In this document: positions 11,601 to 53,827 of the stretch, one piece after another | Layout: each line of letters starts with the position of its first letter | Position numbering within the stretch: position 1 is the first letter of the stretch | DNA from: Candidatus Woesearchaeota archaeon | GTDB lineage: Archaea > Nanobdellota > Nanobdellia > Woesearchaeales > JACPBV01 | Assembly (NCBI GenBank): GCA_019323195.1 | Contig: JAHWHQ010000036.1 | Span: forward strand, 2,952-66,951 | DNA: 64,000 nucleotides | Reading direction: 5' to 3' | Notes under the pieces: generated by a model | Told to the model about the DNA's origin: nothing | The model's database searches: none | What the model saw: only the letters and a program-made list of their open reading frames with translations | Program-made: the position numbers and the translations under genes

Positions 11601-12232
11601 GGGAGGTACTGTAGATTAGTAACACGTTCATGATAATCATAGAGCTCTGTCACCGTCCTGTTGATCTCGTCTTCTGTCGGGTCGTAAGGAAGGTAACCCA
11701 TCTGCTTCCTGACATAGTCTGAGACGATGGTGGAGACGGCAGCAGCTGTCCCCCCTGCAGACCTTATAGGTCCGGAGTACATCAGACAGAAGTATTCCCT
11801 GCCGTCCTTCCTCTTATTCAGCCTGAGCTCGACAAAACCCTCTATGGGGGAAGCGACTATGCCTAAGGTAAGGTAGGCGATACCTACCCTTATCCCTGTC
11901 TCCATGGCCTTTAGCTTAGTGCTGAACCTGCAGAGCTTTTCCTGCGATACCTCAAGTGATATAGTAAGGGCGACCCTCCAGTCAAGGTCTCCAAATTTTT
12001 TCTCCAGCTCCTTTATCCTTTGAGAAAGGCCGGAGTTCTCTATCTCAGGGACTATGGTGGAGATAAGGCCCTCTACCCTCTCCGCCATGTTCTTGGCCAG
12101 AGGAACAGCAGCATCGTCCTCAGGGTCATAGCCGAGGCTTCTTGCCTTTTTTGCAGCTTCATAAGCCGCCTTTACCTGCTGCTCTATCTGCCCAAGGTAT
12201 TTTTTCATTTCCTTGCTTGCTGTCGGCTCCAT
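8693..12232 (-). CDS. polC: DNA polymerase II (family D) large catalytic subunit DP2
   Basis: 1179 aa. It has the characteristic Zn-finger clusters (CPGCSKETVFSVCESCGKK...CKDCG; C-terminal CVNCNQKYRRPPLVGKCTKCGG) and conserved DP2 blocks. No intein is present. Confidence 0.93.
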   Translation of the reverse strand: MEPTASKEMKKYLGQIEQQVKAAYEAAKKARSLGYDPEDDAAVPLAKNMAERVEGLISTIVPEIENSGLSQRIKELEKKFGDLDWRVALTISLEVSQEKLCRFSTKLKAMETGIRVGIAYLTLGIVASPIEGFVELRLNKRKDGREYFCLMYSGPIRSAGGTAAAVSTIVSDYVRKQMGYLPYDPTEDEINRTVTELYDYHERVTNLQYLPSREEISFLAKNLPIQVSGDPSEEIEVSRYKDLERIETNRIRSGVCLVIGEGIAQKAPKLWKQVSKWGKDFGLDEWLFLGDFIKLQKKVKSKSTTEDTGKVAPIYTYISDLVAGRPVLTHPLREGGFRLRYGRARTSGYSSASIHPALTYALNGYIAIGTQLKVERPGKAAAMSCCDTIEGPVVKLTNGDVLRLETTKQAKKLAGQIKEILFMGDILFSYGDFFNRAHPLLPPGYCEEWWVQELEKATVSTFGNLDLDKLSEITGISPDALDTLLRDPLGQRLTALASVQLSKKLGIPLYPYYTYHWNLVSSKDLLGLLEWLSRSSVVEQEGKIHKIVLPLDKEKKRTLEVIGLPHRFISNEYVLIEKEDALVLSEMFSLSAGKGHSGLMETVRKNMEKKPVEIINLISPIKLRDKSGYFIGARMGRPEKAKMRKLTGSPHVLFPVGDEGGKLRCFQTAMESGKITAEFPLYRCPGCSKETVFSVCESCGKKAKKLYFCKDCGVLENGECKHGTARPYMKKSIDINSIFKRIMGNMGEKTMPDLIKGVRGTSNKDHIPEHLAKGILRAKHDIYVNKDGTTRYDMTQLAITHFKPKEIQTSIEKLKVLGYVKDIYGKELVDPGQVLELRPQDLILPACDESPEEGADQILFRLANFIDDLLVEFYHLKPFYSLRSPADLAGKLVIALAPHTSAATTGRIIGFSKTLGFYAHPIFHAATRRDCDGDEASVTLIMDILLNFSRQFLPNNRGATQDAPLVLTSALIPAEVDDMVFDLDVAKRYPLEFYEACLQYKQPWDVEIDQLGKRLNKEGQYEDFWFTHDLGDLNDGKRCSAYKTLPSMEEKLKGQMDLAEKIRAVDTGDVARLVIEKHFIRDIKGNLRKFSQQVFRCVNCNQKYRRPPLVGKCTKCGGKIIFTISEGSIIKYLEPAISLAAKYDLPSYLKLSLELTKRRVEGIFGKEKEKQIALGQWFG

Positions 12233-12233
12233 T

Positions 12234-13808
12234 TTAGATGAATTTCAAGATTTTTATTTCCCTGGTCTTAAGGTTTACAAGAGGTATCCTGCCTGGTTCC
12301 GGGTTATGGCCCACCTTTTCCTGGAAGGATGTCTTTGACTGCCAGCACGAGCCGCTTATCAAAGTTATATTCCTATAGTTTGCAGCTATAGACTTATGGA
12401 TGTGGCCGGTGATAAAGAAATCCGGCTCTCTGGCTATTACTAGGGGGTCCTGCTGCGCGTCAGGGGCGTATAATGTGGAGGTGTGGGTTGGAGCGAGATG
12501 CCTTCTCCTAAGAAGAAACTTCATGATGCGGTCTGCGCGGTTATAGCCGCCGTTGTTCCTTATCGAATCTACGTTCGCAACAAAATAATCGAAAGAGTAG
12601 CCATGGTAAAGCAGCACATCAAAACCGGAGAACTCTTCAGAGGAGTGAATATTGACCAGCGCAGGGTTGGAGACAGAGGTTATATTAGGGAGCCTGTAGA
12701 TGGGCTCTGCAAAATCCCTGTAAAGGGGAGGCTGGGGCTCGGCTATGCGCATGGCATCGTGGTTTCCAGGGCAGATTATAAGGTGTATTCTTGAAGGTAT
12801 CTGCTTCAGCAGACCTGCGCAGGCTTCATACTGGGAGTAAATATCTTTTATGTCGAGTTCCTTTTCCTGCTCAGGGTAGATGCCGCAGCCGTCAACAAGG
12901 TCGCCAACGATGAATATGTACTCAACTTTTGACGCTATTTCCTTCTGTTTTTCGTTGCCGGCCTGCCCGTTTATCCATTTAAGGAACCTGTTGAAGGCTT
13001 CGGGAAGAAAATTATTGGAGCCTACATGCAGGTCTGAAAGGAATAAGGCATAAGCTTCAGACGGGCTTTTTTTAAGCTTCCTGGCGGTGACTTCGGGCCA
13101 GAACAGCTTGTTGGCGAAAACTATGTTGGTGCCGTTAACCCCGCTGATGCCAAGGATCTCGTCAAGGACTATTGACCTGGCCTCTTCGAAGGTGTCCGGC
13201 TTGTTCTTGTTTACCAGGACGTTTATGGAGCCGGTCTGGTCCTCTAACGTCAGGATAAGGTTCTTGTTTTTTGTCAGCTGCTTGTCCGATACCATTCCAA
13301 TCAAGGAGACAGAATCACGGTCTTTCTTGTTTTTTATCCGGTTAATGGTGGTAATGTTCTTAAGGTCGGGCCTTTGACGAAGCAGCTTTTCTATGGCCTT
13401 ATACCGCATATTAAAATACCGGACAAAATCCTGGATGTCCCTTTTTTTTGGGTTCTCGTCATAGGAGTGCACTACTTTAACCTTTTCATCGGTGATTTTT
13501 GCCTTCTTGGTGTAAAGGTATTTTATGAATTTAGGGTAAATCTTGCTTTCTTTCCCTTTTTCCATCTGTGCTTTTGATCTCTCTAGGTCAGGCCAGTTGA
13601 GGTCCAGTACAGAAAGGCTTTGAAGGGCATCATTAATGTCGTTGTTGAGGAAAAGGAAATTCTGAAGGTTTATTTTGCGGGTTATAAGGGAGTAGATCTC
13701 TTCTGCGTGCTTCTGGCTTATATTATCAAGGATGTCTGAGCTTAGGAGGATATCTTTACCAAGAAAAAAATCTACTACCTGCTTTTTTTGGATTGCTTCC
13801 TGCTTCAT
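12234..13808 (-). CDS. polB: DNA polymerase II (family D) small subunit DP1, calcineurin-like phosphoesterase
   Basis: 524 aa. N-terminal DP1 region followed by an OB region. Metallophosphoesterase motifs are LFLSDLHVGS, IFIVGDLVDG, GNHD and GHIH. Confidence 0.9.
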   Translation of the reverse strand: MKQEAIQKKQVVDFFLGKDILLSSDILDNISQKHAEEIYSLITRKINLQNFLFLNNDINDALQSLSVLDLNWPDLERSKAQMEKGKESKIYPKFIKYLYTKKAKITDEKVKVVHSYDENPKKRDIQDFVRYFNMRYKAIEKLLRQRPDLKNITTINRIKNKKDRDSVSLIGMVSDKQLTKNKNLILTLEDQTGSINVLVNKNKPDTFEEARSIVLDEILGISGVNGTNIVFANKLFWPEVTARKLKKSPSEAYALFLSDLHVGSNNFLPEAFNRFLKWINGQAGNEKQKEIASKVEYIFIVGDLVDGCGIYPEQEKELDIKDIYSQYEACAGLLKQIPSRIHLIICPGNHDAMRIAEPQPPLYRDFAEPIYRLPNITSVSNPALVNIHSSEEFSGFDVLLYHGYSFDYFVANVDSIRNNGGYNRADRIMKFLLRRRHLAPTHTSTLYAPDAQQDPLVIAREPDFFITGHIHKSIAANYRNITLISGSCWQSKTSFQEKVGHNPEPGRIPLVNLKTREIKILKFI

Positions 13809-13838
13809 TTTAGGTAAGAAGGACTATTCCTTAGTTGG

Positions 13839-15050
13839 CTAAGATACGGCTAACCCTTCCTCTAAGATCTTTTTTGTTTTTCCTATAAGCGCTTCGGGGA
13901 TCAAAAGTGAGATCTCCCTTGTCCTTCCGTGGCGGCCCTTGGAGATTACCTTGGCGTTTATTATGCCAAGCATGTCCAGTTCAGCTATAACATCAGAGAT
14001 CCTTCTCTGCGTTAACGGCCTGAGGCCTACTCTGGAGGAAACCTGCTTATAGATTTCATAAATATCCCCTGTGAAGATGTTTTCTTTCCTTTTCTGGCTT
14101 AATGAAAGGATAGAGTAAAGTGTTGCCTGGGACTGCTTGGGCTGGTGGGTTATGGCGTCCAGGACGCTGTCTTTCTCTATTTTTTCCTCAGCATGGTCTA
14201 TGTGGGAGATGTCTACCTTTTTTGAACTGTTACGTTCGGCAATCTCGGCTGCAACCCTTAAAAGCTCTAAAGCGCGCCTTGCATCACCGTGCTCCCTGGC
14301 GGCGTAAGCTGCGCATTTTTCAATAACGCCTTCACTGATAGAGTCCTTTTTGAAGGCTTCTGCCGCCCTTTGCTTTAAGATGTCCTGGATCTGTATTGCG
14401 TTGTAAGGAGGGAAAACAAGCTCTTCTTCAGACAGTGAAGAGCGAACCCTTGGGTCTATGTTATCAACAAAGATGAGGTCGTTGGAGATGCCAATAAGAG
14501 AGACCTGTGCATTTTTAAGGTCCTCGTTGATCCTTACAAGGTTGTAAAGTATCTCGTCCCCTGTTTTTTTCACAAGCTGGTCTATCTCGTCAAGGATAAG
14601 AAGAATTAGCTGTTTTTTGGAATCTATAACGTTAAAGAAGGATTTGTAGACTTCGTCTGTAGGCAGGCCGGTAGGAGCTATCTCATGGCCAAATTCACGC
14701 GTCAATTGGGCAATGAGGCGGTATTCTGTGTCTGCCATCTTCTTGAGCTTGCAGTTAAGGTAGACTGTTTTTAACGGGATGCCTTTTTGTTTGGATTTGT
14801 CCAAGAGGTTGTCGGCTATGTGCTTGATGGTAAGGGTTTTGCCAGAACCTGTCTTTCCGTAAATGAACAGGTTAGATGGCTTTTCAAGTTTCAGGCATGG
14901 CGCTAAGATGTTTGCTACCTGCTTTATTTCTGAATCGCGATGTGAGATGGCTTCTGGCGTATAGGAGCTTTGCAGGGCTTTCTTATCTAGAAAAAGGCTT
15001 TCTTTACCTAAAAAGTCCTCAAAAAAGTTGGATAACGCCTCTTTTTCCAT
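13839..15050 (-). CDS. cdc6: Orc1/Cdc6 replication initiator
   Basis: 403 aa. Walker A is IYGKTGSGKT, Walker B is LILDEID, and a C-terminal winged helix follows. It is oriented away from the oriC-like region. Confidence 0.93.
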   Translation of the reverse strand: MEKEALSNFFEDFLGKESLFLDKKALQSSYTPEAISHRDSEIKQVANILAPCLKLEKPSNLFIYGKTGSGKTLTIKHIADNLLDKSKQKGIPLKTVYLNCKLKKMADTEYRLIAQLTREFGHEIAPTGLPTDEVYKSFFNVIDSKKQLILLILDEIDQLVKKTGDEILYNLVRINEDLKNAQVSLIGISNDLIFVDNIDPRVRSSLSEEELVFPPYNAIQIQDILKQRAAEAFKKDSISEGVIEKCAAYAAREHGDARRALELLRVAAEIAERNSSKKVDISHIDHAEEKIEKDSVLDAITHQPKQSQATLYSILSLSQKRKENIFTGDIYEIYKQVSSRVGLRPLTQRRISDVIAELDMLGIINAKVISKGRHGRTREISLLIPEALIGKTKKILEEGLAVS

Positions 15051-15574
15051 ATAGTTTCCATATGAAATGGAGGTATTTAAAGTTTTAGGTGTTATACGGG
15101 AGTAGTGGATTCTTAATTGTATGTAAAGTATGTTCTATGTCGTAGGAGGGGTGTAATAATAGTTGGGTATTTTGGGGTAGATAAGCTCGTTTTACTGTTT
15201 AGAACACACCCCTTGATTTCTTATGGAAAAATGGATTTAAAGATTTTGGCTTTTTTTTGTTTTTTGTTTTTTTATTCTTTTCTATATAGAAAATAATAAT
15301 ATAATAATAAATATAATAAAGATATAAATAAAGAATAAAGAATAAAAATGATAAAGGAGATAATGAGGAATAATAAATAAAGAATAAAAATGATAAAGGA
15401 GATAATGAGGAATAATAAATAAAGAATAAAAATGATAAAGGAGATAATGAGGAATAATAACTAAAAGATAAAGATAATCCGGAAGTAAATATAACTTCCA
15501 TAGGAAAAAGGGGGGTAGCCCTTGCCTAGTAGAAAGAAATATTTATTAAGGCTGGATGTGGGCATTTACTTAAA
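15051..15574. other. Putative replication origin (oriC). ORB-like boxes: 15056-15075 in + orientation, 15205-15229 in inverted orientation, 15495-15520 in + orientation. An AT-rich DUE-like stretch lies at about 15235-15490.
   Basis: The boxes read tTTCCAtatGAAAtGGAGGt (15056-15075), the reverse complement tTCCAtaaGAAAtcaaGGGGtgtg (15205-15229) and cTTCCAtagGAAAaaGGGGGGtagcc (15495-15520). All fit the archaeal ORB pattern TTCCAnnnGAAA followed by a G-string. Two of them in opposite orientation bracket a region of more than 85% A+T. The position next to orc1/cdc6 is also typical. Confidence 0.65.
15334..15459. repeat. Perfect 42-bp tandem direct repeat x3 (aataaagaataaaaatgataaaggagataatgaggaataata) inside the AT-rich origin region
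   Basis: Read directly. Copies are at 15334-15375, 15376-15417 and 15418-15459, with a partial copy upstream. The repeat generates the spurious in-frame ORF 15199..15501 on the minus strand. Confidence 0.9.
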
Positions 15575-16590: not shown

Positions 16591-16725
16591 ATGACAAGGG
16601 TAAACGTAGAGATCGACAATGAGCTGCACAAGAAAGCTAAGCTGAACGCTCTTCTTAAGAACCAGACTTTAATCGAGTATATTCATGAGGCTCTGAGGGA
16701 AAAGGTAAAGAAAGATGGTAAATAA
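16591..16725 (+). CDS. Ribbon-helix-helix (CopG/Arc/VapB-like) small DNA-binding protein, 44 aa
   Basis: MTRVNVEIDNELHKKAKLNALLKNQTLIEYIHEALREKVKKDGK. The layout is a beta-strand (RVNVEID), helix, helix, which is typical of RHH. It is not in the ORF track because it is under 60 aa. Its last 11 nt overlap the ATG of the giant gene at 16715. Confidence 0.6.
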   Translation: MTRVNVEIDNELHKKAKLNALLKNQTLIEYIHEALREKVKKDGK

Positions 16726-19700
16726 GAAAATATTTGTCTTTTTGGTCATGGCTGTTTTTTTGGCTAGTCTGGTCAGGTCCATAGTTCTTTTACCGGAAAA
16801 CCCATTATATGGTTGTAAATTAGATGTACAATATTCAGATGGGGGCCAAATAGACACTAACCCCACCCAGCCATGGAGCGGAGGGGTCAGGTTTGATGGC
16901 AGCAGCAAAAGGATATCCTTTGTAGGCTATGTAAACGGGGACGATGCGATTGATTTGAAGGTGACGTGTTCCGACCCAGGATTACAATCATGCATTTTGA
17001 GAGCAAGAGACGCAGACTCGGTGATATGGAAGTCTGGCAGGTTTGATGGAACCCCTGTAAGGATATCTTTTACAGGCCCGGTGGGCAGCGGTGATGCTAT
17101 TGAGGTTAAGATATACTGCCCCTCTCCTGGGGTGAGAAACAATTGTAAGCTATATGGCAGATACTCAGATTTAGGTCAAATAGATTCTAAGTCGTGGGGG
17201 GATGGGGTTAAGTTCGATAACTCACCATTGGAGATATCGTTTACAGGGGTGGTTAGTAATGATGATGATATAGACCTGAAGATCGAATGCGACTGCCCAT
17301 GCCCTTTTGGCTTGTGTTGTGATAACTGCCAGTTCAGGGATGCGGGAGAGGTATGCGGGAATGTTCCAAGTGATTGTTTGAGTAAGACAGGGGCTGACTA
17401 TTGTTGCGATAAACCAGAGGTATGTGATGGGGCAACGCCTGGCTGCCCTCCAGATAACGATGTCCAAGACAGCAACTATGTTTGCAGGAACCCAAAGGCA
17501 TGTACCGAGCCGGAATGCTGCGACTTACCTGAAAAATGTGACGGCTTAACTAAATACTGCCCTACAGAAGATAAAGTTAAGGATGAAGGGGTACTTTGCA
17601 AGACAGATACAAGGGCATGCTATGATGATGGGTATTGTGACGGGGAATTCCCTGTTTGCTTGCCAAACCCTGCCCCCAAGGATACTCCATGCACTACCGA
17701 CGATGGCAAATCAGGCTATTGCGACCTTGATGGGAACTGTAATGCCGGATGCAGCTCTGATCAGACCTCTCTTTCAAGAAAATCTTCAATGACCGGCTCT
17801 TCAGACACAAATGATATCCCGCAAGATCTCAACGATCAGGCGTGCTGTGACAGTGCAGAGATGTGCGTATATGCCGGAGCGTGTTATCTTGGCACTTCAG
17901 ATAGGTCATATTATCTAAATGCCCTGGGCATTAATGATGTTATCTGCAGATCGAATACCTGGCATGACTGCGATTACAAGGAGGACTATTGTACTGGCTG
18001 GGGTGTGTGCAGTATAGGTATTGGGCGCTGGATAAAAAACGGGGAGGAACAAACAATAGGGGAGTATAATACAGCCTATCCCAATCCAACAGAGAAGTGC
18101 TGCGGTGATGATGCCGGGGAGAAATACGTATCAAGAAATGTTGTAGGTTCAGACTCTGACATTCCGGCAGATGCAGATGACGTGGCCTGTTGTTCCAGCA
18201 GCACTGATTGCGTCTATGACGGCAAGTGCTATGATGCTGGCTCTACAGACCCTGGCAGTTACTGCAAGGGACAAAAGTGGAATGGAGGGGATGATTTACC
18301 AGAGGCATGCCCTCTCTTGGGCGGAACATGGGATGCAGCCATGGCGGCGGGTAGCCAATGCTGCGGCGATGATGAAGGAGAGACGCCAAAATCCCGGGAG
18401 GGGGATTATGCTGACCTTAATGATGAAGCCTGCTGCGGTAGCGATGAATGCGTCCTTAGTGGGGGATGTAAGCCGTATCTTGCTACCTATGACCTGAGCA
18501 GCTACAGCGTTTTAGACGATTCTGCTGACCTAGAGGTGTGCATGTCATCCGGGTGGAAGGATCCAGATTTTAGCCAGGAAGCGTGCCAGGCCGTAAATAA
18601 CAAAAGAACAGATGGAGGGGGAAACTTAATCCCTACATTATGGATGGCGGGGGGGGAGTGCGGATATGGCACTGGGCAATGTGATGATGCCCCTAATTCC
18701 CCAAATAAGATGAATTTCTGCTGCGGTGACGACCCTTGGGAGCTTTTTAACCCTGCCAGGAGCGGAACTAAGTGTTTTATCCACCCGGATTACGGGTGTT
18801 CCCATGATGGTGTGGACTATATATATAAGCCGATGGTAAATGGGAAGTATACTGATGATGACTGCTGTAAAGGCACATGCCCTGAAGGGGGATGTTGCGA
18901 TAAGAACTGCAATTATCTGCCTGATACCCATATATGCAGGGAAGCGGCGTCAGAATGTGATGTGGCTGAAAAATGCACAGGAACGAGCCCAGACTGCCCA
19001 GACAACGCCTTTGAACCAATCGGTACAGAACCTCCTTGCGGGAAGTGCGACGGGGCAGGGAACTGCGGGGAATGCCTTCCTACCGAGTTTAATAACCACC
19101 GAGAATCAATAAAACCTGCTATACCTATAGATGATAAATATCCTTATTTCCCAACACTTACTACAGACAAGGCATGCTGCTCAGAAATAGATGATTGCGT
19201 GTATGACGGCAAGTGCTATGCCAGCAACAGCGGCAGGCCAGAGGGCAGCCCCCCTGTTGATATTATGGGCGCTGTCTGTTATATCCCTGAATCACAAAAG
19301 TGCCCCACCTGCATAAGGGGCGGAACATGGTATGACTGCGACAATGACCAGAGCTTTTGCACGAATAATGAGTGGGGATGTTCCCTGAACTGGGTGGCCA
19401 GCGGGGAGGCTGGTGTCGGGGAGTACGGCGCTGAGGGAACGATGGAATGCTGCGGGGATGATTTTGATACTGACGGCAACCCCCAGGAGTTCTTTAAGGT
19501 AATCAAGCTGGGCAGCGATTCTACACTTTCGGTTTCAGGAACAGACAAGGCATGCTGCAATTCAGGCAATGACTGCGTTGAGAATTATGAATGCTATGAT
19601 CCAGGAAGGCTGCATAAGGGTGGGAAGGATTACTGCAATGCAACAGGAGGATGGGAGGGAGGGGATAATTCAGAGGCTGCATGCACGGCAATAACAAAAG

Positions 19701-22700
19701 CTGCAGGAAGGTGGGATATAGACTTTGAATCTTCCGTTGCTGCAACAGGACCGTGCTGCGGTGATGATGATGCTACAGAGAGGTTTGTTACCTGTGACAT
19801 TGATGATTTTTGCAGCGATACAGCAAAAACAGCGTGCTGCGACAATACGCATGACTGCGTATTTGACGGGGTATGCCATCCTGCCTATGATGCCAGCAAT
19901 CCAAAGCCGGAATCTTTCCTTGATATGAAGAATGGCCTTCCTCTATGGGACACATCTTCTGACATGGAGGTCTGCATCGATGATCCGGTGGCAGGGAGGC
20001 TGGGTTGGAAAGACCCTGATGATTATGATGGTGCCTGCTCTGCCGTGAACAACAGGCCGAACCCTACTAGGTGGATGTCCGGGGCAGATACAAGCTGCGG
20101 CCTTGAGAGGGAAGGGAGGGTATGCGATGATTCTCCCAGCGGGCTAAACACGGCAGATTTCTGCTGCGGCGATGATGAGGGGGAGGTTTTTAGGGAAGAG
20201 GAAGGTTTTGAGAATGCGTGCCTTGTCAAGGGCGGATGCTATTTTGAGGGACAACACTTCCTGGACGGGGAATATTCAGGGGATAATTACTGCCAGAACG
20301 GTGAGGTCATACAGAGAACGAAGCTTATTGCCCTACAGCTGTTGGACATAGCAAACAAGGAAAGCCCTTCGCATTATACATTATTCTGCGACAGCTATGA
20401 GAATGCCCTTAACTATTATAGCTACGACCTTAATCCGCCGTATTCAACTTCAGCCTTTCCTTATACAGATAAAATCAATAATGTATGCCTCTTAAGGCTA
20501 AAAGACCAGGTAATATTCGGGACATCCTTAGATGACCCTATAGACGAAGGGGCTTACCCTTTCATTAACGTACTAAAGGATATAAAAAGCAATCTTGACT
20601 GCAGCAGCGTGCAAGGTGTAGGGGACTGGCAGTTCCATAGCTGCAATACTCTTAAGGTATGGTATAATGATAAGATACAGAGCGTAATATACAGCAATAA
20701 GGACCTAAACCTTGGGAACCTTGATTTTGATGAGAAGTTCTTATTGTTCCTGAAGAACCCGTTCCAGAACATATTTGATTCAATTATCAGCTTATTTGGG
20801 GAGTCGAAGGTTGATCCCGAGGATTATGGGTTCCTGAAAGACAGCAAGAAGTTTTCAAGGATATACCTTGACAGGACAGGGGTCAAGTCCATAAAAGGTG
20901 TTATAGAGGATGATGCAGAAGCAGGAGAGTACCTTTCTATAGCCTATAACTGCTATACTGATGATATATGCGAGACAGTAGAGGCTGCGCAGGAGAGATT
21001 TGGGGCCAAAGGGATATTTGGAGGGGATGAGATCAGCTGCAGTTATAAGCCGGATATCTCCACTTATTATGTTGCAAGCAGATCACCTACCCGGCTGGAC
21101 ATGTGGCCGCAGCTGACAGCAGGCTTGAGGACGAAGAATGTAAAGCTTCCTACAGGGCTTACAATAACCCCGCGCATAAAGGCGCCGGAAAAGGCTATAA
21201 AGGGCTATCCTGTAGAGTTCCAGGCAGATGTTGAGGGGGCCTGCATCTCACCCCCTTATACCTATTCCTGGACTTTTGGGGATGCAGGAACAGGCTCAGG
21301 AGAGGCGCCAACACATGCCTATACTGCAACAGGCAGCTATATTGTGGGCTTAACAGTTGAGGAACAGAAAGATGCTTCAAACCATGGAAGCGGCACCCAT
21401 AGCCTGGAGGTTATTGACATTAAAGATTGTGAAATAAGGGATAAATCAGTTGGATGTGATGCTGGAGCCCTTGAGCAGTGCATCATGTCATTATCCGCAG
21501 GGGCAGATGCTACAGCAGACGAGGCATGCGACAGCGTCTCGCCATACGAGCTTTGCTGCCAGAATATATTCCAGGTGGATACTGCCCCGGGGGGGTGCGG
21601 GGAGGCGGGGCTTATCTCATTGTCACAGACCTTTAACGGCAGGGCAGACGGGTATAACCAGGGGACGTTTGCAAACGACATCTGCATAAGGTCGGCTGTG
21701 GAGGGGATGAAGGCCAGCTGCAGGCCTGTACTTAAAGGAGATACTTTCAATAACCTTGGTGGCGAGGTGTGCGTCCTTTCATTATCTGCTTTTAAGGGGG
21801 GCGTAATCTCGGGATGCGACCCCAATGCTGAAGTGAATATCTACTGCAGGATTATCGATGAGGCTGTAAATGTTGAAAACTGTGAGAACGGCGAGAATGA
21901 TGATGGAAGCGGCCTTGATGACTGCGAGAACGCGGCCTACTGCCCGACAGGGACATTCTGCAATGCGGAGCATACGCAAAGATGCACAAAAGACGCATCT
22001 GACAATCGCCTGTGTGAATGCATCGATAATGATGGTGACGGCTATGGCGCTTGCGCTGGTGCGGATTGTAATGATCCTGCTACATGTGACTGCAATGATG
22101 GTGATCCCTCAATACATCCAGGTGCAGCTGAAACCTGCGATAATGTAGATGAGGACTGTGACAAGCTAGTTGATGAGGGTGTAACAAAACAAGAGGCATG
22201 CAGTGTCGGCTGTCCTGGAAACAAATGCACTTTTACATGCTCAGCAGGGGCGTGGACTGAAGACCTTTCTAACGCTTATAATGGGGCTACTCTAGAGGTG
22301 TGTGATGCTTTGGATAATGACTGCGACGGGGAGATTAATGAGGGTGTAACAAGAATGGTTTTCTGCGGCGACTATGGAGTCTGCAAACTCCAAAGCCATA
22401 CTCAAACATGCAACATAGCTGGTGAATGGGTTCCTGCTACCTGTGATACAACTACAATCCCTAATTATAACACTAATGATGATTGTAGTGATACCTTAGA
22501 TAATGACTGCGATAATTCTGTAAATGAGGATGGGTTGGAGACATTCTATAAAGATGGCGATTCAGACGGGTATGGGCTGCAGACAGATTTACAGGAGGCA
22601 TGTGCAGGTTCGCTGCCTGCTGGCTATGTCGCTTCTAAACCCGACGGTTATGACTGTAATGATGGCGATTGGAGGATTAATCCTGGGAAGACCGAGACCT

Positions 22701-25021
22701 GCGACGGGCTGGATAATGACTGTGACTCAACAACAGCGGACGGCTCTGATGAATCCTGGTTTGGTGCTGCCTGTGACGGCACAGACGCAGATCAATGCGC
22801 TGACGGATTCTATGTATGCACTGCAGAGGTAAAGGCATGTACAGACGATGCTGCCAATAGGATTGAGGTATGTGACGGCGATGATAATGACTGTGATGGT
22901 TTAACGGACGAAAATGTTCTGACTACATACTATCAGGATGCAGATGGAGATGGCTATGGAAAATATTCCAGCACAAAACAGGATTGTACACCACCTGTAG
23001 GTTATGTCGCTTCTAAGCCCGATGGTTATGACTGTGATGACACCAAGCCAGGTATTCATCCAGGAGCCACTGAAACCTGTGATGGCCTAGATAATAATTG
23101 CGTGGATGGAACGGATGAAGGGTGTGATTGTGTAACCGGAGCCACGCGAGACTGCGGGGCAAGCAATACAGCACCATGTAAATATGGCAAAGAAACCTGT
23201 GTAAATGGCGCGTGGAGCGGCAGCTGCATCGGCAATATAGACCCCGCCACTGAAATCTGCGATGGTGTGGATAATGACTGTGACGGCTCAACAGACGAAA
23301 CATATTCAAACTGCCCTGCCGCTTATATTGATGCTCCTAATTGTAAGTCCTATGCAGCCAGCACCTGTAGTAGCGGGAGCTGCACTGCTCAAGCAGCTTC
23401 TGATGCTCCTGATAACACCATATGTGAAGTTAGCACAGGCAGGGTCTGCAAAGGGGGCACTTGTTGTGTTGCTAATCTGGGCCAGCCATGCTTAAATGGT
23501 TATGGCAGTTCCTGCGTTAATCCAGGGACTATACAATGCGACGGAAGCTGCACAGGCTGGACTTTTAAGGATAAAGGTACCTCTTGTGGCGGTTATCTCC
23601 ACCAGTGTAATGGTGCTGGAAGTTGTTGTACAGGCCCTGAGTTAAATGTAGATTGCATCTCTACTTGCGGGAACGGCGTCTGTGATTCTACAGAATCCTG
23701 CAATAAATGCCCTGAAGATTGCCCTATTGCAGCATTTTCTGCCAGCGGAACAGGATGCGCAGCATGCCCCTTAGGATCCTATGCTGGGGAGGGAGGCGTC
23801 ACATACTGCAAGACTCCGATTGACTCCTGCCTAACTGCCTCATTTAGGTATCGTTGTACTGGTTGCGCAGGATCAGCCTGTTGTACCTGGGTTAAAGCAA
23901 GCTGTTTTGTTCCTTACTCTGAAGGCGTCCCCTGCCGAAGTTATACCGAGGATCTTATGTGGAAGATTTCCAGCGACCCATCTATAATTAACGGTCTTTC
24001 ATGCGCCCCTACCTGCCCACAGCTCCTTATCAAATCAGAAGATGGAACCCTAACTTACCAAAACAATATCATTAAGGGAAATATCCTGCCAAACCTGGAA
24101 ACACTAAGGTTTGATAAATTCAGGCAAAGGATTCAGCCTGGCGACAAGATTGTAATACACGAGGCCGGTGCAGGGGATGTTACTTACCTGAACTCTCTTG
24201 AGTTGGTGGGCTATAAGAGCTTAGAGGGAAAGACAGAGGTCCTTCTTGACCAGAGCTTCAACCCTGTAGGGTTTAATCAAGGGGATTTAGTGTCCACCCT
24301 CCCTGAAACTGAGATACAGGATTACCTTGAATACAACGAGATAAATCTTGATGGGGAAGAGGCATACCTTTACCTGACAGGAGGGATAACATCCCAATGG
24401 ACCACCAATCTGCGCGAGGTCGTAATGAAGAAGCTTGCGCACCCTAAACTGTATGAGCTGGCTCCGGGATTTGTGGATCTTGTAGGGACAAACCTTTCCT
24501 TCTATGCCAATATTGTTGTGGAGGTGGAGAAAAATGGTGTCTGGCAGAGATTAAACATGCCTAAGGTTTTGATCATGGAGAATCATGAAACAGCTGTTGT
24601 AAGATTACCTGCAGGGGCATCCAGAGTGCGGACCCGAACAATTTTGGGGATGTACCAGTTCGACAGGTTTGCATTGCTTCCGGTTTCAGATGCAGACCCT
24701 GATATAGAACAAAAAACATTCACATTAAAGGATAATGCCCAATTAGCAGAGACTGACGGCCTATACAGCGAAATTGAGAAGGACCCGCTTGAGATTGACC
24801 TTGCTGATTTTAATGATGCGGAAGAGATACAGAACTACGACAATTTTTACCTTAAGACAAGCGGATATTACCTTTACGGGAAACGGGCAATGGAAGATAT
24901 GGAGAGCACACTTATGGATGATTTAGTTCTGGCCTATAGGCTGAATAAGATTAAAAAATGGCTCAGTTCCCCTGAAGAATATATGGAAGAGATAATGGAT
25001 TTTGCAGGAATGAAGTCGTGA
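16715..25021 (+). CDS. Giant secreted Cys-rich surface protein (2768 aa)
   Basis: Signal/anchor is MVNKKIFVFLVMAVFLASLV. Three N-terminal repeats of about 55 aa (YSDGGQIDTN...ISFVGYVNGDDAIDLKVTC) are encoded at about 16820-17290. At least six Cys-rich modules of the form CCGDDxGE ... ACCxSxxDCVxDGxCY follow. A PKD-like domain (YTYSWTFGDAGTGSGEAPTHAYTATGSYIVGLTV) is encoded at about 21150-21420. MopE-like putative metal-binding motifs (CxDxDxDGYG, DNDCDGxxDE, HPGAxETCDGxDN) at about 21990-23320 recur at least six times. The C-terminal approximately 450 aa are Cys-poor. Confidence 0.85.
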   Translation: MVNKKIFVFLVMAVFLASLVRSIVLLPENPLYGCKLDVQYSDGGQIDTNPTQPWSGGVRFDGSSKRISFVGYVNGDDAIDLKVTCSDPGLQSCILRARDADSVIWKSGRFDGTPVRISFTGPVGSGDAIEVKIYCPSPGVRNNCKLYGRYSDLGQIDSKSWGDGVKFDNSPLEISFTGVVSNDDDIDLKIECDCPCPFGLCCDNCQFRDAGEVCGNVPSDCLSKTGADYCCDKPEVCDGATPGCPPDNDVQDSNYVCRNPKACTEPECCDLPEKCDGLTKYCPTEDKVKDEGVLCKTDTRACYDDGYCDGEFPVCLPNPAPKDTPCTTDDGKSGYCDLDGNCNAGCSSDQTSLSRKSSMTGSSDTNDIPQDLNDQACCDSAEMCVYAGACYLGTSDRSYYLNALGINDVICRSNTWHDCDYKEDYCTGWGVCSIGIGRWIKNGEEQTIGEYNTAYPNPTEKCCGDDAGEKYVSRNVVGSDSDIPADADDVACCSSSTDCVYDGKCYDAGSTDPGSYCKGQKWNGGDDLPEACPLLGGTWDAAMAAGSQCCGDDEGETPKSREGDYADLNDEACCGSDECVLSGGCKPYLATYDLSSYSVLDDSADLEVCMSSGWKDPDFSQEACQAVNNKRTDGGGNLIPTLWMAGGECGYGTGQCDDAPNSPNKMNFCCGDDPWELFNPARSGTKCFIHPDYGCSHDGVDYIYKPMVNGKYTDDDCCKGTCPEGGCCDKNCNYLPDTHICREAASECDVAEKCTGTSPDCPDNAFEPIGTEPPCGKCDGAGNCGECLPTEFNNHRESIKPAIPIDDKYPYFPTLTTDKACCSEIDDCVYDGKCYASNSGRPEGSPPVDIMGAVCYIPESQKCPTCIRGGTWYDCDNDQSFCTNNEWGCSLNWVASGEAGVGEYGAEGTMECCGDDFDTDGNPQEFFKVIKLGSDSTLSVSGTDKACCNSGNDCVENYECYDPGRLHKGGKDYCNATGGWEGGDNSEAACTAITKAAGRWDIDFESSVAATGPCCGDDDATERFVTCDIDDFCSDTAKTACCDNTHDCVFDGVCHPAYDASNPKPESFLDMKNGLPLWDTSSDMEVCIDDPVAGRLGWKDPDDYDGACSAVNNRPNPTRWMSGADTSCGLEREGRVCDDSPSGLNTADFCCGDDEGEVFREEEGFENACLVKGGCYFEGQHFLDGEYSGDNYCQNGEVIQRTKLIALQLLDIANKESPSHYTLFCDSYENALNYYSYDLNPPYSTSAFPYTDKINNVCLLRLKDQVIFGTSLDDPIDEGAYPFINVLKDIKSNLDCSSVQGVGDWQFHSCNTLKVWYNDKIQSVIYSNKDLNLGNLDFDEKFLLFLKNPFQNIFDSIISLFGESKVDPEDYGFLKDSKKFSRIYLDRTGVKSIKGVIEDDAEAGEYLSIAYNCYTDDICETVEAAQERFGAKGIFGGDEISCSYKPDISTYYVASRSPTRLDMWPQLTAGLRTKNVKLPTGLTITPRIKAPEKAIKGYPVEFQADVEGACISPPYTYSWTFGDAGTGSGEAPTHAYTATGSYIVGLTVEEQKDASNHGSGTHSLEVIDIKDCEIRDKSVGCDAGALEQCIMSLSAGADATADEACDSVSPYELCCQNIFQVDTAPGGCGEAGLISLSQTFNGRADGYNQGTFANDICIRSAVEGMKASCRPVLKGDTFNNLGGEVCVLSLSAFKGGVISGCDPNAEVNIYCRIIDEAVNVENCENGENDDGSGLDDCENAAYCPTGTFCNAEHTQRCTKDASDNRLCECIDNDGDGYGACAGADCNDPATCDCNDGDPSIHPGAAETCDNVDEDCDKLVDEGVTKQEACSVGCPGNKCTFTCSAGAWTEDLSNAYNGATLEVCDALDNDCDGEINEGVTRMVFCGDYGVCKLQSHTQTCNIAGEWVPATCDTTTIPNYNTNDDCSDTLDNDCDNSVNEDGLETFYKDGDSDGYGLQTDLQEACAGSLPAGYVASKPDGYDCNDGDWRINPGKTETCDGLDNDCDSTTADGSDESWFGAACDGTDADQCADGFYVCTAEVKACTDDAANRIEVCDGDDNDCDGLTDENVLTTYYQDADGDGYGKYSSTKQDCTPPVGYVASKPDGYDCDDTKPGIHPGATETCDGLDNNCVDGTDEGCDCVTGATRDCGASNTAPCKYGKETCVNGAWSGSCIGNIDPATEICDGVDNDCDGSTDETYSNCPAAYIDAPNCKSYAASTCSSGSCTAQAASDAPDNTICEVSTGRVCKGGTCCVANLGQPCLNGYGSSCVNPGTIQCDGSCTGWTFKDKGTSCGGYLHQCNGAGSCCTGPELNVDCISTCGNGVCDSTESCNKCPEDCPIAAFSASGTGCAACPLGSYAGEGGVTYCKTPIDSCLTASFRYRCTGCAGSACCTWVKASCFVPYSEGVPCRSYTEDLMWKISSDPSIINGLSCAPTCPQLLIKSEDGTLTYQNNIIKGNILPNLETLRFDKFRQRIQPGDKIVIHEAGAGDVTYLNSLELVGYKSLEGKTEVLLDQSFNPVGFNQGDLVSTLPETEIQDYLEYNEINLDGEEAYLYLTGGITSQWTTNLREVVMKKLAHPKLYELAPGFVDLVGTNLSFYANIVVEVEKNGVWQRLNMPKVLIMENHETAVVRLPAGASRVRTRTILGMYQFDRFALLPVSDADPDIEQKTFTLKDNAQLAETDGLYSEIEKDPLEIDLADFNDAEEIQNYDNFYLKTSGYYLYGKRAMEDMESTLMDDLVLAYRLNKIKKWLSSPEEYMEEIMDFAGMKS

Positions 25022-26912: not shown

Positions 26913-27053
26913 GTGAAAGAGAGGATTACGATTACTATTGATAAGGAACTTCTTAATTGGTTAGATAAGAAAATAGATGAAAAGGTTTTTGCAAACAGGT
27001 CTCACGGCCTAGAGTTTCTTATAAAACGGAGGATGGAGGGGGAGAATGAATAA
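26913..27053 (+). CDS. Ribbon-helix-helix (CopG-family) small DNA-binding protein, about 46 aa, GTG start
   Basis: VKERITITIDKELLNWLDKKIDEKVFANRSHGLEFLIKRRMEGENE. It shows the CopG-type signature (RITITIDxELxxxLD...NRSxxIxxLI). The stop TAA at 27051-27053 overlaps the ATG of the giant gene at 27046 (sequence gagAATGAATAAgg). The start codon is uncertain and could be GTG at 26913. Confidence 0.55.
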   Translation: MKERITITIDKELLNWLDKKIDEKVFANRSHGLEFLIKRRMEGENE

Positions 27054-30000
27054 GGCAGCCAGATACAGCCTTGTTCTTGTTGTTATAGTATTGATGGCTA
27101 TGCTGAGCTTTAAGCTTGCTTTGGCAGATGAGGGATGCTGTTATGCTAAGGCAACCCATCAATGCACTTATTCCATTAAAGGAACCCCCCAGGAGACAAC
27201 AGAAACTGCATGTTTAGTGAGCTCTAATAATATCTGGGATGATGACCCTACATGCGCAGGCATACCTGAATGCGAGATGGGATGCTGCTGCCAATCAAAC
27301 CAGCCGCTTTATACGATAAGGGGGGAGTGCGATGTAAGGAAGCTGGAATGGGTCAAGACAAATGAGGAAGGGTGTAATTATCATTGCATAAGCGGAATAC
27401 CAGCTTGCAAGCCAAACTGCGAGGTCAATGGTGGCGAGTGTGTAGGGGTAGGAGGCAAGCTTGCTGCTGCCGGGAAGAGATACTGCGGGGCAGACGGCAG
27501 CTTGTATGACAACTGGGCAGATTGCCTGCAATGCATGGAGGAAGCCTCTCTCCCTGAATGCGGGCTAGATGCCGCGATAACAGTAAAATGCACCTATGAT
27601 GATATTATATATCCTCCTGAGAATGGGGGTTATCTATGCTTAAATGGAGTATATGTTCCTGGCGATAAAAGTGCCTGTGTTGGTGATTGTTCTACAGGCG
27701 GAACGATGATAACGGCAGACTGCTTTTGCGGAGGTGTCAAGAAGTCAGACGGCTATTGCTGCGTGGATGGGATGCATTATCCTACACAGGCAGGATGGAA
27801 AGCGTGCAATGATGCTGCAGGAAGCACCTGTGAAGGGGTTGGCTTTGTGTGCTCGGATGCCTGCGATACAGCCGAAGACAGAAATGCTGCTTTTGATTAT
27901 GGCAGCTGTACAGATGCAACAAAATGCTGCCCCACTGACCTTCCTTACTGCTGCGAGAAAGAGGCTGTCTCTTATGCATACTGCTGCGACCAGTATGAGG
28001 AATGCACCGGAACTGACCTATATAATGAGCCCGAATCTGACCCTTATAGGTATATCTATAAGTCCTGCAATGCAGGTGACCTGTCAAAAAAGCCATGCAC
28101 TGCAGAATGCAAGAGGTTAGAATGCTCGCAGGGAAACTGGAGGATAAACAGCGGGGCTAATACACATCCAACACTTACACACTGTTACTGTGACGGAAGC
28201 CCAAGGGACATATCCTTTGACGGGGGATATTGCTGCGCAGACGGCGGAGATGGAAAATATCAGACCACTCCGTGCATCATTGAGACAGGAGACGTATTAG
28301 GCTATGTTTATAATCTGCTTGATAATGCCCGGATAGCAGATGCAGATATAAATGCCTATAGGTTCGGGACGAAAATAGGCTATACTGTCACCAACAATAA
28401 TGGGGAATATACACTTTCAAACATGCCTTATGGCGGGTATAAGATATATGCTTCAAAAGATGGCTTTAAGGCAAATAGTATAGATGTTGACCTTATTGCC
28501 CCCCAGCTGCAAAACAAGAACATAGGCTTAATACCTTATACTGAGGGACCGTGCGATTCCTGCAGCCCGCCAGCACCCGTCATCACCGCAGAGCCTGTAA
28601 GGGGGAAGGAGGGAATAGAGCTTTCATGGAACATACCTGAGGATACTTCTTTTTGCAGTTCTTCTTTGACTGACAGCTTTGTTATAGAAAAGAAAGAGGC
28701 TGCAAAGAAATTGGCAGAGATGAGGACTGACCAGGCCATTTTAATTGATAATGATGTTTCATGGGATACCACTTATACCTATTCAACAACTGCGCATTAT
28801 ACGACCAATGCCATAAGCACATCTCAAGATTCCTTTCCAGTATCCCCTGGAAGCGCATTTTGCGAGGGCATATACAGCGATGATATGGAGTTCTGCCTTT
28901 CAGACGGCTTTATACAGGCAGACACCAATAATTACAGGTACAGGTGCGACCATAACAATAATCTTGTTAATGTCTATCTCAGTTCACCATCTTCGCAGAT
29001 GGGGCCGAGCTGCACTGATGAGGGCAAGGATGTTTGCGTCGGGCCCGATACAACAGGGGAGACAGAATGCATAGAACAGCCAGACTGCAGGGAGATGGGG
29101 GATTTTAAGCCGTTCGGGCTGTATTATGATGAAGACAGCTGCCTTGACAACGGGGACAGCTGGTGCTATTATGATTCCTCCACTACAATAATAGACAAGT
29201 GCGACAACTGCAGGGCAAAGAGCTGCTATGATTATAAGAGCAAGGAGGCATGCGAAGCTGATAACTGCAGGGCAGGGGGGCTTTATATTGACAGGGAGAC
29301 AGGGGCCAACAATGGATGCAAATGGATACATACATGGGAGGAGTATGGGAAGGGGATATGCTATGACCCTGACTTCAACGGCCAGGAATGCGGCTTATGC
29401 AGCAATGAGGGAGACCTTTTCTTCAATACCGGCTGTACACAAACAATATGCTCGGCTTTAGGAAAATGCTATTCCAGCTCAGATGGATGCATGGAATGCG
29501 CGGAAGGGACAGCATGTGAAGATTATGAGAATGAAGAGGCGTGTGTTGGCATAGTCGGTAATGAACAGGAGATTGATTTTGTGAACAATGCTGGCTGCGG
29601 CATTAATAATATACCTCTTGAAATACAGCCCAGCAATGATGCCTGCGGACTTGGGGTGTGCAAGTGGGACAGCACAATGAAAAGCTGTTACAAGGATGCG
29701 GATGATGATCTTGTTGAAGACTGCGGTGAAGGAGAGGTAATCTGCATGAAGGATTCAAAACCTCCTGTGACAAGCCCGGAGATGAGCATACCTAACATTG
29801 GGCTTTCAGGACATCATATACAGTTTATTGTGCCATATCAGGGGTGGTCTTATGCAGAAAAATTCTATTATTGTGTGGATGCATCCAATACGTGCTGCCC
29901 TACTTCTGAGAAAAACCTTGACTGTGTTGTTAATACAGGGAAGTGTACGGTTATAGGTGGGGTAAACCCTGTGGAAGACCTGGCAGATTCAGAATATACA

Positions 30001-41892: not shown

Positions 41893-41901
41893 AACCATAA
41901 A

Positions 41902-47682: not shown

Positions 47683-47725
47683 TGGGCAACTAAATGATAC
47701 GTATTATAAATATTTAACTTTTTTA

Positions 47726-50256: not shown

Positions 50257-50295
50257 ATTGTATTGAAAAAACTTTTATAACTAAAGGTAATTTTC

Positions 50296-52471: not shown

Positions 52472-52510
52472 TTTTATATAACAATTTTTTTACTTATTAT
52501 TTAAAGTTAA

Positions 52511-53791: not shown

Positions 53792-53827
53792 TTGGCTAAT
53801 ATTATTTTTTTACTTATTTAAATTTTT

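What the first reader, a model, noticed from the sequence alone, without database searches (positions are those of the whole stretch)
17980..20230. A possibly undescribed Cys-rich module repeats about six times in giant protein 1
The recurring unit is about 55-100 aa. It begins with CCGDD-x-GE (seen as KCCGDDAGEK, QCCGDDEGET, FCCGDDPWEL, ECCGDDFDTD, PCCGDDDATE, FCCGDDEGEV). About 25 residues later comes ACC-x-S-x-x-DCV-x-DG-x-CY (seen as VACCSSSTDCVYDGKCY, EACCGSDECVLSGGCKPY, KACCSEIDDCVYDGKCY, KACCNSGNDCVENYECY, TACCDNTHDCVFDGVCH). Vicinal Cys-Cys pairs in a conserved extracellular module are unusual and suggest a distinct disulfide or metal-binding fold. I do not recognise it as a named domain.
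Basis: seen in the sequence. Interest (0 to 1): 0.55.

Follow-up and report, generated by a model that had tools for sequence, protein, structure and literature searches.

The report
Undescribed cysteine-rich repeat in archaeal surface giant
A giant secreted protein of a Woesearchaeota archaeon carries six copies of a roughly 100-residue, eight-cysteine repeat that matches no named domain family or solved structure but recurs in hundreds of surface proteins of small symbiotic (DPANN) archaea, so it is a real, apparently undescribed building block of their cell surface.

Summary
ORF 16715-25021 (+, 2768 aa; identical to MBW2974624.1, Ca. Woesearchaeota) holds six CCGDD motifs and six, not five, ACC-x4-C-x5-C motifs.

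- **Repeat anatomy:** 73-130 aa with eight conserved Cys plus W, D-x-D, GEY and CCGDD-x-x-E. Three subtypes form a triplet that was duplicated long ago (34% identity).
- **Not chance:** an HMM built only from other proteins finds all six units (40-72 bits each). Shuffled sequences score below -145 bits.
- **No known relative:** Pfam, NCBIfam and PDB sequence searches find nothing over the module. A confident AlphaFold2 model (pLDDT 85.6, pTM 0.77) has no Foldseek match in PDB (best E 1.4).
- **Family size:** a profile search of 1.84 billion representatives finds 347 proteins, with up to 16 units each. Named members are Woese-, Alti-, Aenigm- and Undinarchaeota, and all are annotated "hypothetical".
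- **Disulfides:** cysteines are lost in pairs, and 278 of 291 repeat periods hold an even cysteine count.

Best reading: a new disulfide-stapled extracellular rod module. Possible Ca2+ binding and a stalk or adhesion role are inferred, not shown.

The parts
16715..25021 (+). Giant ORF (2768 aa), identical to MBW2974624.1 'PKD domain-containing protein [Candidatus Woesearchaeota archaeon]'; host of the repeat array
   Evidence: Pfam elsewhere in the protein: MopE-like motif x6, PKD, sub-threshold Disintegrin.
16715..16795 (+). N-terminal hydrophobic segment (MVNKKIFVFLVMAVFLASLVRSIVLLP). It looks like a signal peptide or N-terminal anchor and is the only hydrophobic stretch in the protein.
   Evidence: Kyte-Doolittle scan. 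89 of 124 family members that start with M have the same feature.
17819..18145 (+). Unit 1 (aa 369-477), subtype C: ACC...C...CY...C..W.DCD..C...W..GE..GEY..CCGDDAGE
   Evidence: Leave-window-out HMM 72.5 bits; alignment.
18167..18397 (+). Unit 2 (aa 485-561), subtype A (short; W-x-GGD, no GEY)
   Evidence: 43.2 bits. It lies inside the AF2 model and has pLDDT above 90 over most of its length.
18410..18754 (+). Unit 3 (aa 566-680), subtype B (DLEVC..GWKDPD..AC.AVNN..W M..CG..CDD..FCCGDD, with two extra Cys)
   Evidence: 39.9 bits; colinear with homologues P0001 and P0002.
18755..18862 (+). Cap after unit 3 (aa 681-716): a C-x6-C hairpin variant that replaces the ACC hairpin
   Evidence: Aligns with the cap after unit 6 and with P0001/P0002.
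18863..19039 (+). Disintegrin-like Cys-rich insertion (aa 717-775) between the two triplets. It is not part of the module.
   Evidence: Pfam PF00200, 31.3 bits against a cut-off of 35.1, aa 720-764.
19157..19471 (+). Unit 4 (aa 815-919), subtype C
   Evidence: 70.4 bits.
19532..19786 (+). Unit 5 (aa 940-1024), subtype A
   Evidence: 41.0 bits.
19808..20197 (+). Unit 6 (aa 1032-1161), subtype B
   Evidence: 44.1 bits.
20198..20302 (+). Terminal cap (aa 1162-1196: ..ENACLVKGGCYFEGQHFLDGEYSGDNYCQNG). It leads into a conserved domain with no family match that is shared with P0001, P0002 and P0032.
17936..18478 (+). Segment modelled with AlphaFold2 (aa 408-588). The confident core runs from CCGDD through the linker strands, the ACC hairpin and the C..W hairpin to a short helix.
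   Evidence: mean pLDDT 85.6, pTM 0.77.

Best explanation
The region is an array of six copies of a previously undescribed extracellular protein module, arranged as two ancient copies of a three-subtype triplet (C-A-B).

Each repeat has eight conserved cysteines: two vicinal pairs (CCGDD and ACC) and four single Cys. It also has an invariant Trp and conserved acidic positions (D-x-ACC, DC, W-x-D-x-D, CCGDD-x-x-E).

The cysteines form four disulfides per repeat. Two are inferred from cysteines being lost together:
- The first hairpin Cys (C15) pairs with the Cys before the Trp hairpin (C43).
- The first Cys of ACC (C8) pairs with a Cys of the preceding CCGDD.

A third pairing is tentative: the helix Cys (C59) with the following CCGDD. 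The last (C9-C21) follows by elimination. Under this scheme each CCGDD doublet would be cross-linked both backwards and forwards. Successive beta-hairpin units would then be stapled into one continuous, stiff rod.

The module is carried by secreted or N-terminally anchored giant proteins of DPANN archaea, next to PKD, Ig-like, cohesin, beta-propeller, MopE-like and disintegrin-like domains.

The most likely role is inferred, not shown. It would be a protease- and shear-resistant stalk, probably stabilised by Ca2+ at the acidic clusters, that projects or spaces binding domains away from the cell surface for attachment to hosts or substrates.
For: **Shown by tool results**
- Six units are detected by an independent HMM.
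- The family has 347 representative proteins (115 at E<=1e-10), with nearly full-length matches and up to 16 units per protein.
- In a local re-search of the 152 proteins in hand (the listed hits plus the first-search proteins), 149 hold 471 units. C8, C9, C15, C21, C43, W49 and D53 are each present in 89-94% of them, and C59, C92/C93, D95 and D96 in 85-87%.
- The C-A-B triplet is colinear in homologues P0001 and P0002. The two triplets in this protein are 34% identical (E 5e-42), with no long DNA repeats, so this is an old duplication and not an assembly artefact.
- AF2 on aa 408-588 with 41 aligned segments gives pLDDT 85.6 and pTM 0.77. It is a beta-hairpin-rich chain with pLDDT above 90 from just after CCGDD to the helix.

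**Evidence for disulfides**
- 16 of 17 units lacking C15 also lack C43 (p=3.5e-15).
- 14 of 16 units lacking C8 have no upstream CCxDD (p=3.3e-10).
- C59 is absent in 16 of 40 units without a downstream CCGDD, against 9 of 360 with one (p=5e-12).
- 278 of 291 CCGDD-to-CCGDD periods have an even Cys count (8, 10, 12 or 14), against 55% of random windows.

**Evidence for an extracellular location**
- This protein has an N-terminal hydrophobic segment, as do 89 of 124 members.
- Partner domains are PKD, Big_7, Cohesin, CarboxypepD_reg, beta-propeller and MopE-like.
- The neighbouring ORFs are further giant Ig-like-repeat proteins.
Against: - No coordinates of the AF2 model were available, so S-S distances, the acidic clusters and the rod shape could not be inspected.
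- Ca2+ binding rests only on conserved Asp/Glu.
- The C59-CCGDD pairing is confounded, because terminal units lose their whole C-terminal half.
- Two units with a single Cys in the CCGDD position do not show the predicted loss of a partner.
- The first ACC of this protein (aa 376) keeps both Cys although no CCGDD precedes it.
- Nothing tests the stalk function directly.
- These archaea may live in reducing environments (my own background knowledge, not checked here), where extracellular disulfides would be harder to keep.
Confidence: 0.7

Rival explanations
1. The conserved cysteines, especially the vicinal CC pairs, coordinate metal ions (Zn, Fe or Cu) rather than forming disulfides. The module would then be a metal-binding or redox unit.
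For: Vicinal Cys pairs and a high Cys density are present. The same protein carries Pfam 'Cu-binding_MopE' motifs elsewhere. DPANN archaea may live in anoxic habitats where disulfides are disfavoured (my own background knowledge, not tested here).
Against: - Cysteines are lost strictly in pairs (C15 with C43; C8 with the upstream CC), not in sets of three or four.
- Cys counts per period rise in steps of two and are even in 95.5% of periods.
- No conserved His accompanies the Cys.
- The proteins look secreted.
Confidence: 0.12
2. The module is a very divergent member of a known Cys-rich extracellular superfamily (disintegrin/ADAM Cys-rich, TNFR-CRD, EGF/laminin-EGF, LDL-receptor A or granulin) that sequence and Foldseek searches fail to connect.
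For: - The insignificant top Foldseek hits are TNFR cysteine-rich domains, VWF D'D3 and EGF arrays.
- A disintegrin-like segment sits inside the array.
- The W-x-D-C-D motif is loosely reminiscent of the acidic Ca2+ cage of LDL-A and MopE motifs (my own reading of the sequence).
Against: - Pfam at E<=10 on 18 units gives only noise.
- Foldseek best: E 1.4, probability 0.02, TM 0.14.
- hhalign of the module profile against the protein's own disintegrin-like and MopE regions gives probabilities of 0.2-0.3%.
- The Cys spacing pattern fits none of these families.
Confidence: 0.1
3. The module is itself the ligand-binding, adhesive element rather than a passive spacer. An example would be a Ca2+-dependent glycan or cell-wall binder that uses the invariant Trp and the acidic clusters.
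For: - W49, D51, D53, D95, D96 and E99 are each present in at least 71% of the 471 units (D51 71%, E99 77%, the other four 85-92%).
- The loops between the helix and CCGDD vary greatly in length and define subtypes, as expected for diversifying binding surfaces.
- Some family members consist of little else (P0005, P0006, P0014).
Against: The conserved residues are equally well explained as structural. No similarity to any lectin or adhesin was found, and no experimental data exist.
Confidence: 0.25
4. The repeat is a chance, low-complexity or assembly artefact.
For: None found.
Against: - Expected CCGDD count by composition is 0.019 against 6 observed, and shuffles score below -145 bits.
- Units are only 26-42% identical to the reference unit (unit 1), with no long DNA repeats.
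- The module is conserved in hundreds of independent metagenomic proteins.
Confidence: 0.01

Closest known systems
TNF-receptor cysteine-rich domains and other elongated disulfide-ladder repeats (EGF arrays, VWF D'D3 Cys-rich modules)
   Same: Both are extracellular tandem small modules with little secondary structure beyond beta-hairpins. Both are held by several disulfides per module and form elongated rods. These were the top Foldseek hits, though insignificant.
   Different: There is no significant structural or sequence match (E>=1.4, TM<=0.17). This module is larger (73-150 aa), has two vicinal CC doublets, an invariant Trp hairpin and a CCGDD-x-x-E signature, and is archaeal.
Disintegrin / ADAM cysteine-rich domain (Pfam PF00200)
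   Same: It is Cys-rich and extracellular, contains CC doublets, and a disintegrin-like segment occurs in the same protein (aa 717-775 and about aa 200-330).
   Different: The Pfam model hits only the insertion, at a sub-threshold 31.3 bits, and none of the six units. hhalign of the module against the disintegrin-like region gives probability 0.2%.
Granulin / epithelin module
   Same: It has vicinal Cys-Cys doublets on stacked beta-hairpins cross-linked by ladder-like disulfides (my own knowledge of the family).
   Different: Granulin has 12 Cys with four CC doublets in about 55 aa. This module has 8 Cys with two CC doublets 23-34 aa apart in about 100 aa. Pfam found no match even at E<=10.
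MopE-like 'putative metal-binding motif' (PF11617), thrombospondin type 3 repeats and LDL-receptor class A acidic motifs
   Same: All have short Asp-rich motifs flanked by Cys (D-C-D here; CxDGxDNDCDG in MopE). MopE-like motifs co-occur in the same proteins and often directly follow the last cap of an array.
   Different: The MopE model matches aa 1792-2200, not the units. hhalign gives probability 0.3%. The architecture and length differ.

Membership tests
Pfam-A (any family, 24,736 models) | Match above the family's gathering score over the repeat unit | tested here: not met
   The whole protein matches only MopE, PKD and sub-threshold Disintegrin, all outside the units. 18 units scanned at E<=10 give five unrelated single hits, best E 0.11. 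12 other family members show no family over the module.
NCBIfam (18,950 models) | Any model match to the giant protein | tested here: not met
   0 families at E<=1.
Disintegrin (PF00200) | Profile match and the characteristic Cys pattern within the unit | tested here: not met
   The only match is aa 720-764, in the insertion between units 3 and 4 (31.3 bits, below the 35.1 cut-off). hhalign of the module against the N-terminal disintegrin-like region gives probability 0.2%.
Cu-binding_MopE (PF11617) | 30-aa CxDGxDNDCDGxxDE motif | tested here: not met
   The six matches lie around aa 1792-2200, outside the array. hhalign of the module against that region gives probability 0.3%.
Any protein with a solved structure (PDB) | Sequence-profile or fold similarity | tested here: not met
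   hmmsearch of the unit profile against PDB sequences gives 0 hits at E<=10. Foldseek of the pLDDT-85.6 model gives best E 1.4, probability 0.02, TM 0.14. BFVD best E 4.8.
Granulin | 12 Cys with four CC doublets: C-x5-6-C-x5-CC-x8-CC-x6-CC-x5-CC-x4-C-x5-6-C | tested here: not met
   The unit consensus has 8 Cys and two CC doublets separated by 23-34 aa plus a roughly 60-100 aa body. No Pfam hit.
Predicted-structure databases of cellular proteins (AFDB, ECOD, CATH superfamilies) | Fold-level similarity to a classified superfamily | not testable with these tools
Disulfide-bonded extracellular repeat modules (general kind) | Secretion signal, even Cys number, pairwise Cys covariation, tandem arrangement | tested here: met
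   N-terminal hydrophobic segment. 278 of 291 periods have an even Cys count. Paired loss of C15/C43 and of C8 with the upstream CC. Tandem arrays of up to 16 units.

The most novel reading that the evidence does not exclude
The CCGDD/ACC repeat is a new protein fold largely specific to DPANN archaea. It would be a disulfide-chained, Ca2+-loaded rod in which each vicinal Cys doublet cross-links both the preceding and the following unit. It would build the long surface stalks or adhesins through which these ultra-small episymbionts attach to host cells. It would then be both a lineage marker and a handle on the attachment machinery.
Probability: 0.3. Interest if true: 0.65.

Novelty: new variant of a known kind. 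Interest (0 to 1): 0.5.

Why it matters
DPANN archaea are thought to depend on physical attachment to hosts, yet most of their very large surface proteins are annotated "hypothetical".

- **Annotation:** defining a recurrent module found in 347 representative clusters across at least four DPANN phyla, with a usable HMM, a confident structural model and a testable disulfide map, turns long stretches of unannotated giant proteins into recognisable architecture.
- **Experiment:** it gives structural biologists a compact target of 75-130 aa that is predicted to be a new fold.
- **Biochemistry:** if the chained-disulfide rod and Ca2+ binding are confirmed, it would add a new solution to building stiff extracellular stalks.
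- **Physiology:** it would also raise the question of how organisms with tiny genomes, possibly living without oxygen, oxidise so many cysteines outside the cell.

It is a new domain family rather than a new kind of biological system, so the interest is solid but moderate.

Tried and rejected
1. The search for homologous proteins with a 60-unit alignment (A3) returned no hits at E<=1e-5, although the family exists. The word-index search appears unsuited to this short, gapped profile. The index-free representative search was used instead.
No systematic taxonomic scan was therefore done, and taxonomy rests on 30 cluster look-ups.
3. AF2 on a single unit framed ACC to CCGDD gave only pLDDT 64.5, with the CCGDD half poorly placed. 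Re-framing across unit boundaries gave 85.6, which shows that the first frame cut the structural core.
4. Literature searches for 'CCGDD', for DPANN + cysteine-rich + surface protein, for Woesearchaeota + cysteine-rich, and for DPANN + giant proteins + adhesion found nothing describing the module.
5. I considered and rejected homology to the protein's own disintegrin-like and MopE regions, and a recent tandem duplication or assembly artefact.
6. The genomic context of the best hit, P0007, was not informative: an archaeal contig with no conserved neighbours.
Full report
**Setting**

The window is archaeal. It encodes an intein-containing MCM, the PolD large (DP2) and small (DP1) subunits and Orc1/Cdc6 just upstream of the finding. 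Three further giant Ig-like-repeat ORFs lie downstream.

The finding lies in ORF 16715-25021 (+), which encodes 2768 aa. The sequence is identical to MBW2974624.1, 'PKD domain-containing protein [Candidatus Woesearchaeota archaeon]'. The protein has a single hydrophobic segment, at the N-terminus, consistent with a signal peptide or anchor.

**Checking the observation**

All six CCGDD motifs are present at aa 462, 549, 669, 912, 1014 and 1150 (nt 18098, 18359, 18719, 19448, 19754, 20162). None occurs elsewhere in any frame of the window. Composition predicts 0.019 occurrences.

The ACC-x4-C-x5-C motif occurs six times, at aa 376, 491, 572, 820, 946 and 1040.

**The repeat unit**

D-x-A-C-C-x4-D-C-V-x2-G-x-C-Y ... 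C-x3-G-x-W-x-D-x-D-x5-C ... W-x3-G-E-x3-G-E-Y ... C-C-G-D-D-x-G-E

It has eight conserved Cys and is 73-125 aa long in this protein.

The six units fall into three subtypes that form a triplet, C-A-B, present twice (aa 370-680 and 814-1161).
- The two triplets are 34% identical (E 5e-42) and colinear.
- At the DNA level only the short motif-coding stretches are similar. This is an old duplication, not an assembly artefact.
- Between the triplets sits a short cap and a disintegrin-like insertion (PF00200, 31.3 bits, below the cut-off).

**Is it more than chance, and is it a family?**

A first search with aa 370-1200 found only four true relatives. All carry the same motifs, and two (P0001 and P0002, the latter a Woesearchaeota protein) carry the same C-A-B order.

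A profile of 18 units was then searched without a word index against 1.84 billion representative proteins.
- It found 347 proteins at E<=1e-3, 115 at E<=1e-10 and 14 at E<=1e-30.
- Most match the whole profile, and there are up to 16 units in one 6834-aa protein.
- In a local re-search of the 152 proteins in hand (the listed hits plus those from the first search), 149 hold 471 units. Of these, 378 are full length, with a median length of 99 aa and a median gap between units of 16 aa.
- C8, C9, C15, C21, C43, W49 and D53 are each present in 89-94% of units. C59, C92/C93, D95 and D96 are present in 85-87%, G94 in 79%, E99 in 77% and D51 in 71%.

To remove circularity, an HMM was built from 369 units that exclude this protein and its two closest relatives. 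It recovers exactly six units here, at 40-72 bits each. 200 shuffles of the protein score at most -145.8 bits.

**Who has it?**

Of 30 clusters looked up, the named ones are Woesearchaeota, Altiarchaeota/Altiarchaeales, Aenigmarchaeota and Undinarchaeales. There is also one partial Thorarchaeota MAG protein on a 2-kb contig. Apart from two entries named after other domains in the same proteins ('PKD domain-containing', 'DNRLRE domain-containing'), all are called 'hypothetical'.

Partner domains in members are PKD, Ig-like, cohesin, CarboxypepD_reg, beta-propeller and MopE-like. 89 of 124 members that start with Met have an N-terminal hydrophobic segment. The module therefore belongs to secreted or surface proteins.

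**Is it known?**
- No Pfam-A model covers the module in this protein, in 18 isolated units at E<=10, or in 12 other members.
- NCBIfam gives nothing.
- The unit profile has no hit among PDB sequences at E<=10.
- hhalign against the protein's own disintegrin-like and MopE regions gives probabilities of 0.2-0.3%.
- Full-text searches found no description of the motif.

**Structure**

AF2 on one unit framed ACC to CCGDD was mediocre (pLDDT 64.5). The ACC hairpin and Trp hairpin were fairly confident, but the CCGDD end was poor.

AF2 on aa 408-588 used 41 aligned segments and spans the end of unit 1, all of unit 2 and the start of unit 3. It was confident, with mean pLDDT 85.6 and pTM 0.77.
- pLDDT exceeds 90 from just after CCGDD through two linker strands, the ACC strand, the C-V-Y/C-Y hairpin and the C..W hairpin to a short helix ending at C59.
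- Confidence drops only in the variable W/GEY segment that precedes the next CCGDD.
The HMM unit I used is a circular permutation of it.
- The high pTM over 1.7 repeats suggests a fixed inter-unit geometry, that is, a rod.

Array ends agree with this frame. Arrays typically finish with a cap (CCGDD ... ACC-x4-C-V-D-x3-G-x-C) and often begin with a half unit (W-D..C..W..GGE..CCGDD).

Foldseek found no significant match in PDB. The best hit has E 1.4, probability 0.02 and TM 0.14, and the top hits are TNFR CRDs, VWF D'D3 and EGF arrays. BFVD also gave nothing.

**Disulfides or metal?**

- Of 17 units lacking C15, 16 also lack C43 (p=3.5e-15).
- Of 16 units lacking C8, 14 have no CCxDD upstream (p=3.3e-10).
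- C59 is missing in 16 of 40 units with no downstream CCGDD, against 9 of 360 with one (p=5e-12). This last test is confounded by truncation of terminal units.
- Counting Cys per CCGDD-to-CCGDD period gives an even number in 278 of 291 periods (8, 10, 12 or 14), against 55% for random windows. The parity is lost when the frame is shifted by 20-50 aa.

Pairwise loss and increments of two are the signature of disulfides, not of three- or four-ligand metal sites.

The resulting map is:

| Pair | Basis |
|---|---|
| C15-C43 | inferred, strong |
| C8 - a Cys of the preceding CCGDD | inferred, strong |
| C59 - the other Cys of the following CCGDD | tentative |
| C9-C21 | by elimination |

Each CC doublet would thus be tied both backwards and forwards, chaining the units.

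**Function**

Nothing tests function directly. The inference is that the module is a stiff, disulfide-stapled stalk or spacer in giant surface adhesins. It rests on:
- the anatomy (rigid beta-hairpin units, chained disulfides, conserved Asp/Glu clusters suggestive of Ca2+);
- the tandem arrays;
- the partner domains and the lineage, since DPANN archaea are described in the literature as mostly ectosymbiotic (abstracts listed).

A direct ligand-binding role for the variable loops is a live alternative. Metal binding by the thiols is less likely.

**Verdict**

This is an apparently undescribed domain family and predicted fold, but of a familiar general kind: a Cys-rich extracellular repeat.

Noticed in passing
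window 2739-6164 (+): The MCM helicase gene is interrupted by an intein with a LAGLIDADG homing-endonuclease domain (Pfam MCM, Intein_splicing, LAGLIDADG_3).
   Followed up: partly
window 8693-15050 (-) and the intergenic stretch 15051-15574: PolD DP2, PolD DP1 and Orc1/Cdc6 lie in a row directly upstream of the giant gene. The AT-rich intergenic region next to cdc6 is a candidate replication origin. I did not search it for ORB repeats.
   Followed up: no
window 16811-17299 (aa 33-195 of the giant protein): Three tandem copies of a 50-60-aa unit (CKLDVQYSDGGQIDT...ISFVGYV..DDAIDLKVTC) have no Pfam match. This is a second unannotated repeat in the same protein.
   Followed up: partly
window 17300-17750 (aa ~196-345) and 18863-19039 (aa 717-775): These are disintegrin-like Cys-rich segments (CCDxxC..., CDxxExCxGxSxxCPxD). 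Only the second reaches a sub-threshold Pfam Disintegrin hit, which is an unusual domain for an archaeon.
   Followed up: partly
window 20198-21150 (aa ~1162-1480): A conserved domain follows the last CCGDD (..SRTKLIALQLLDIA...YTLFCDSYENALNYY...). It is shared with P0001, P0002, P0032, P0096 and P0106 and has no family match. It always follows a subtype-B unit.
   Followed up: partly
window 21400-21930 (aa ~1565-1740): A threefold internal repeat is built around an hSLS motif (MSLSAG.., ISLSQTF.., LSLSAF..) with flanking Cys. The homologous region in P0001 and P0002 reads LSxxxDAH / NAH. It has no family match.
   Followed up: no
window 27046-44697 (+): Three more consecutive giant ORFs (2012, 2935 and 931 aa) carry Big_13, Glucodextran_B, Big_3_3, CarboxypepD_reg and TSP3 repeats. 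None contains the CCGDD module. Together with the finding they form a surface-protein gene cluster of about 28 kb.
   Followed up: partly
window 46810-55326 (-): A low-GC stretch (0.30 around 50-54 kb) encodes UbiA prenyltransferase, GT4/GT1 and GT2 glycosyltransferases and two PMT_2-like (dolichyl-phosphate-mannose type) transferases. It looks like a surface glycosylation island next to the giant surface proteins.
   Followed up: partly
P0020 (MHA1290502.1), not in the window: One family member is labelled Thorarchaeota (Asgard) but sits on a 2.2-kb contig of a MAG. This could be a binning error or a genuine occurrence outside DPANN.
   Followed up: no
family-wide: linker between CCGDD and ACC, e.g. 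window aa 1027-1033: Many linkers carry an extra Cys pair (E-x-C-x4-8-C-x-[SD]-D-P-x-D-x-ACC). Array-initial units that lack an upstream CCGDD often have C-x6-7-C-[IV]-x-G-G-D-D instead. This suggests an alternative N-terminal cap.
   Followed up: partly
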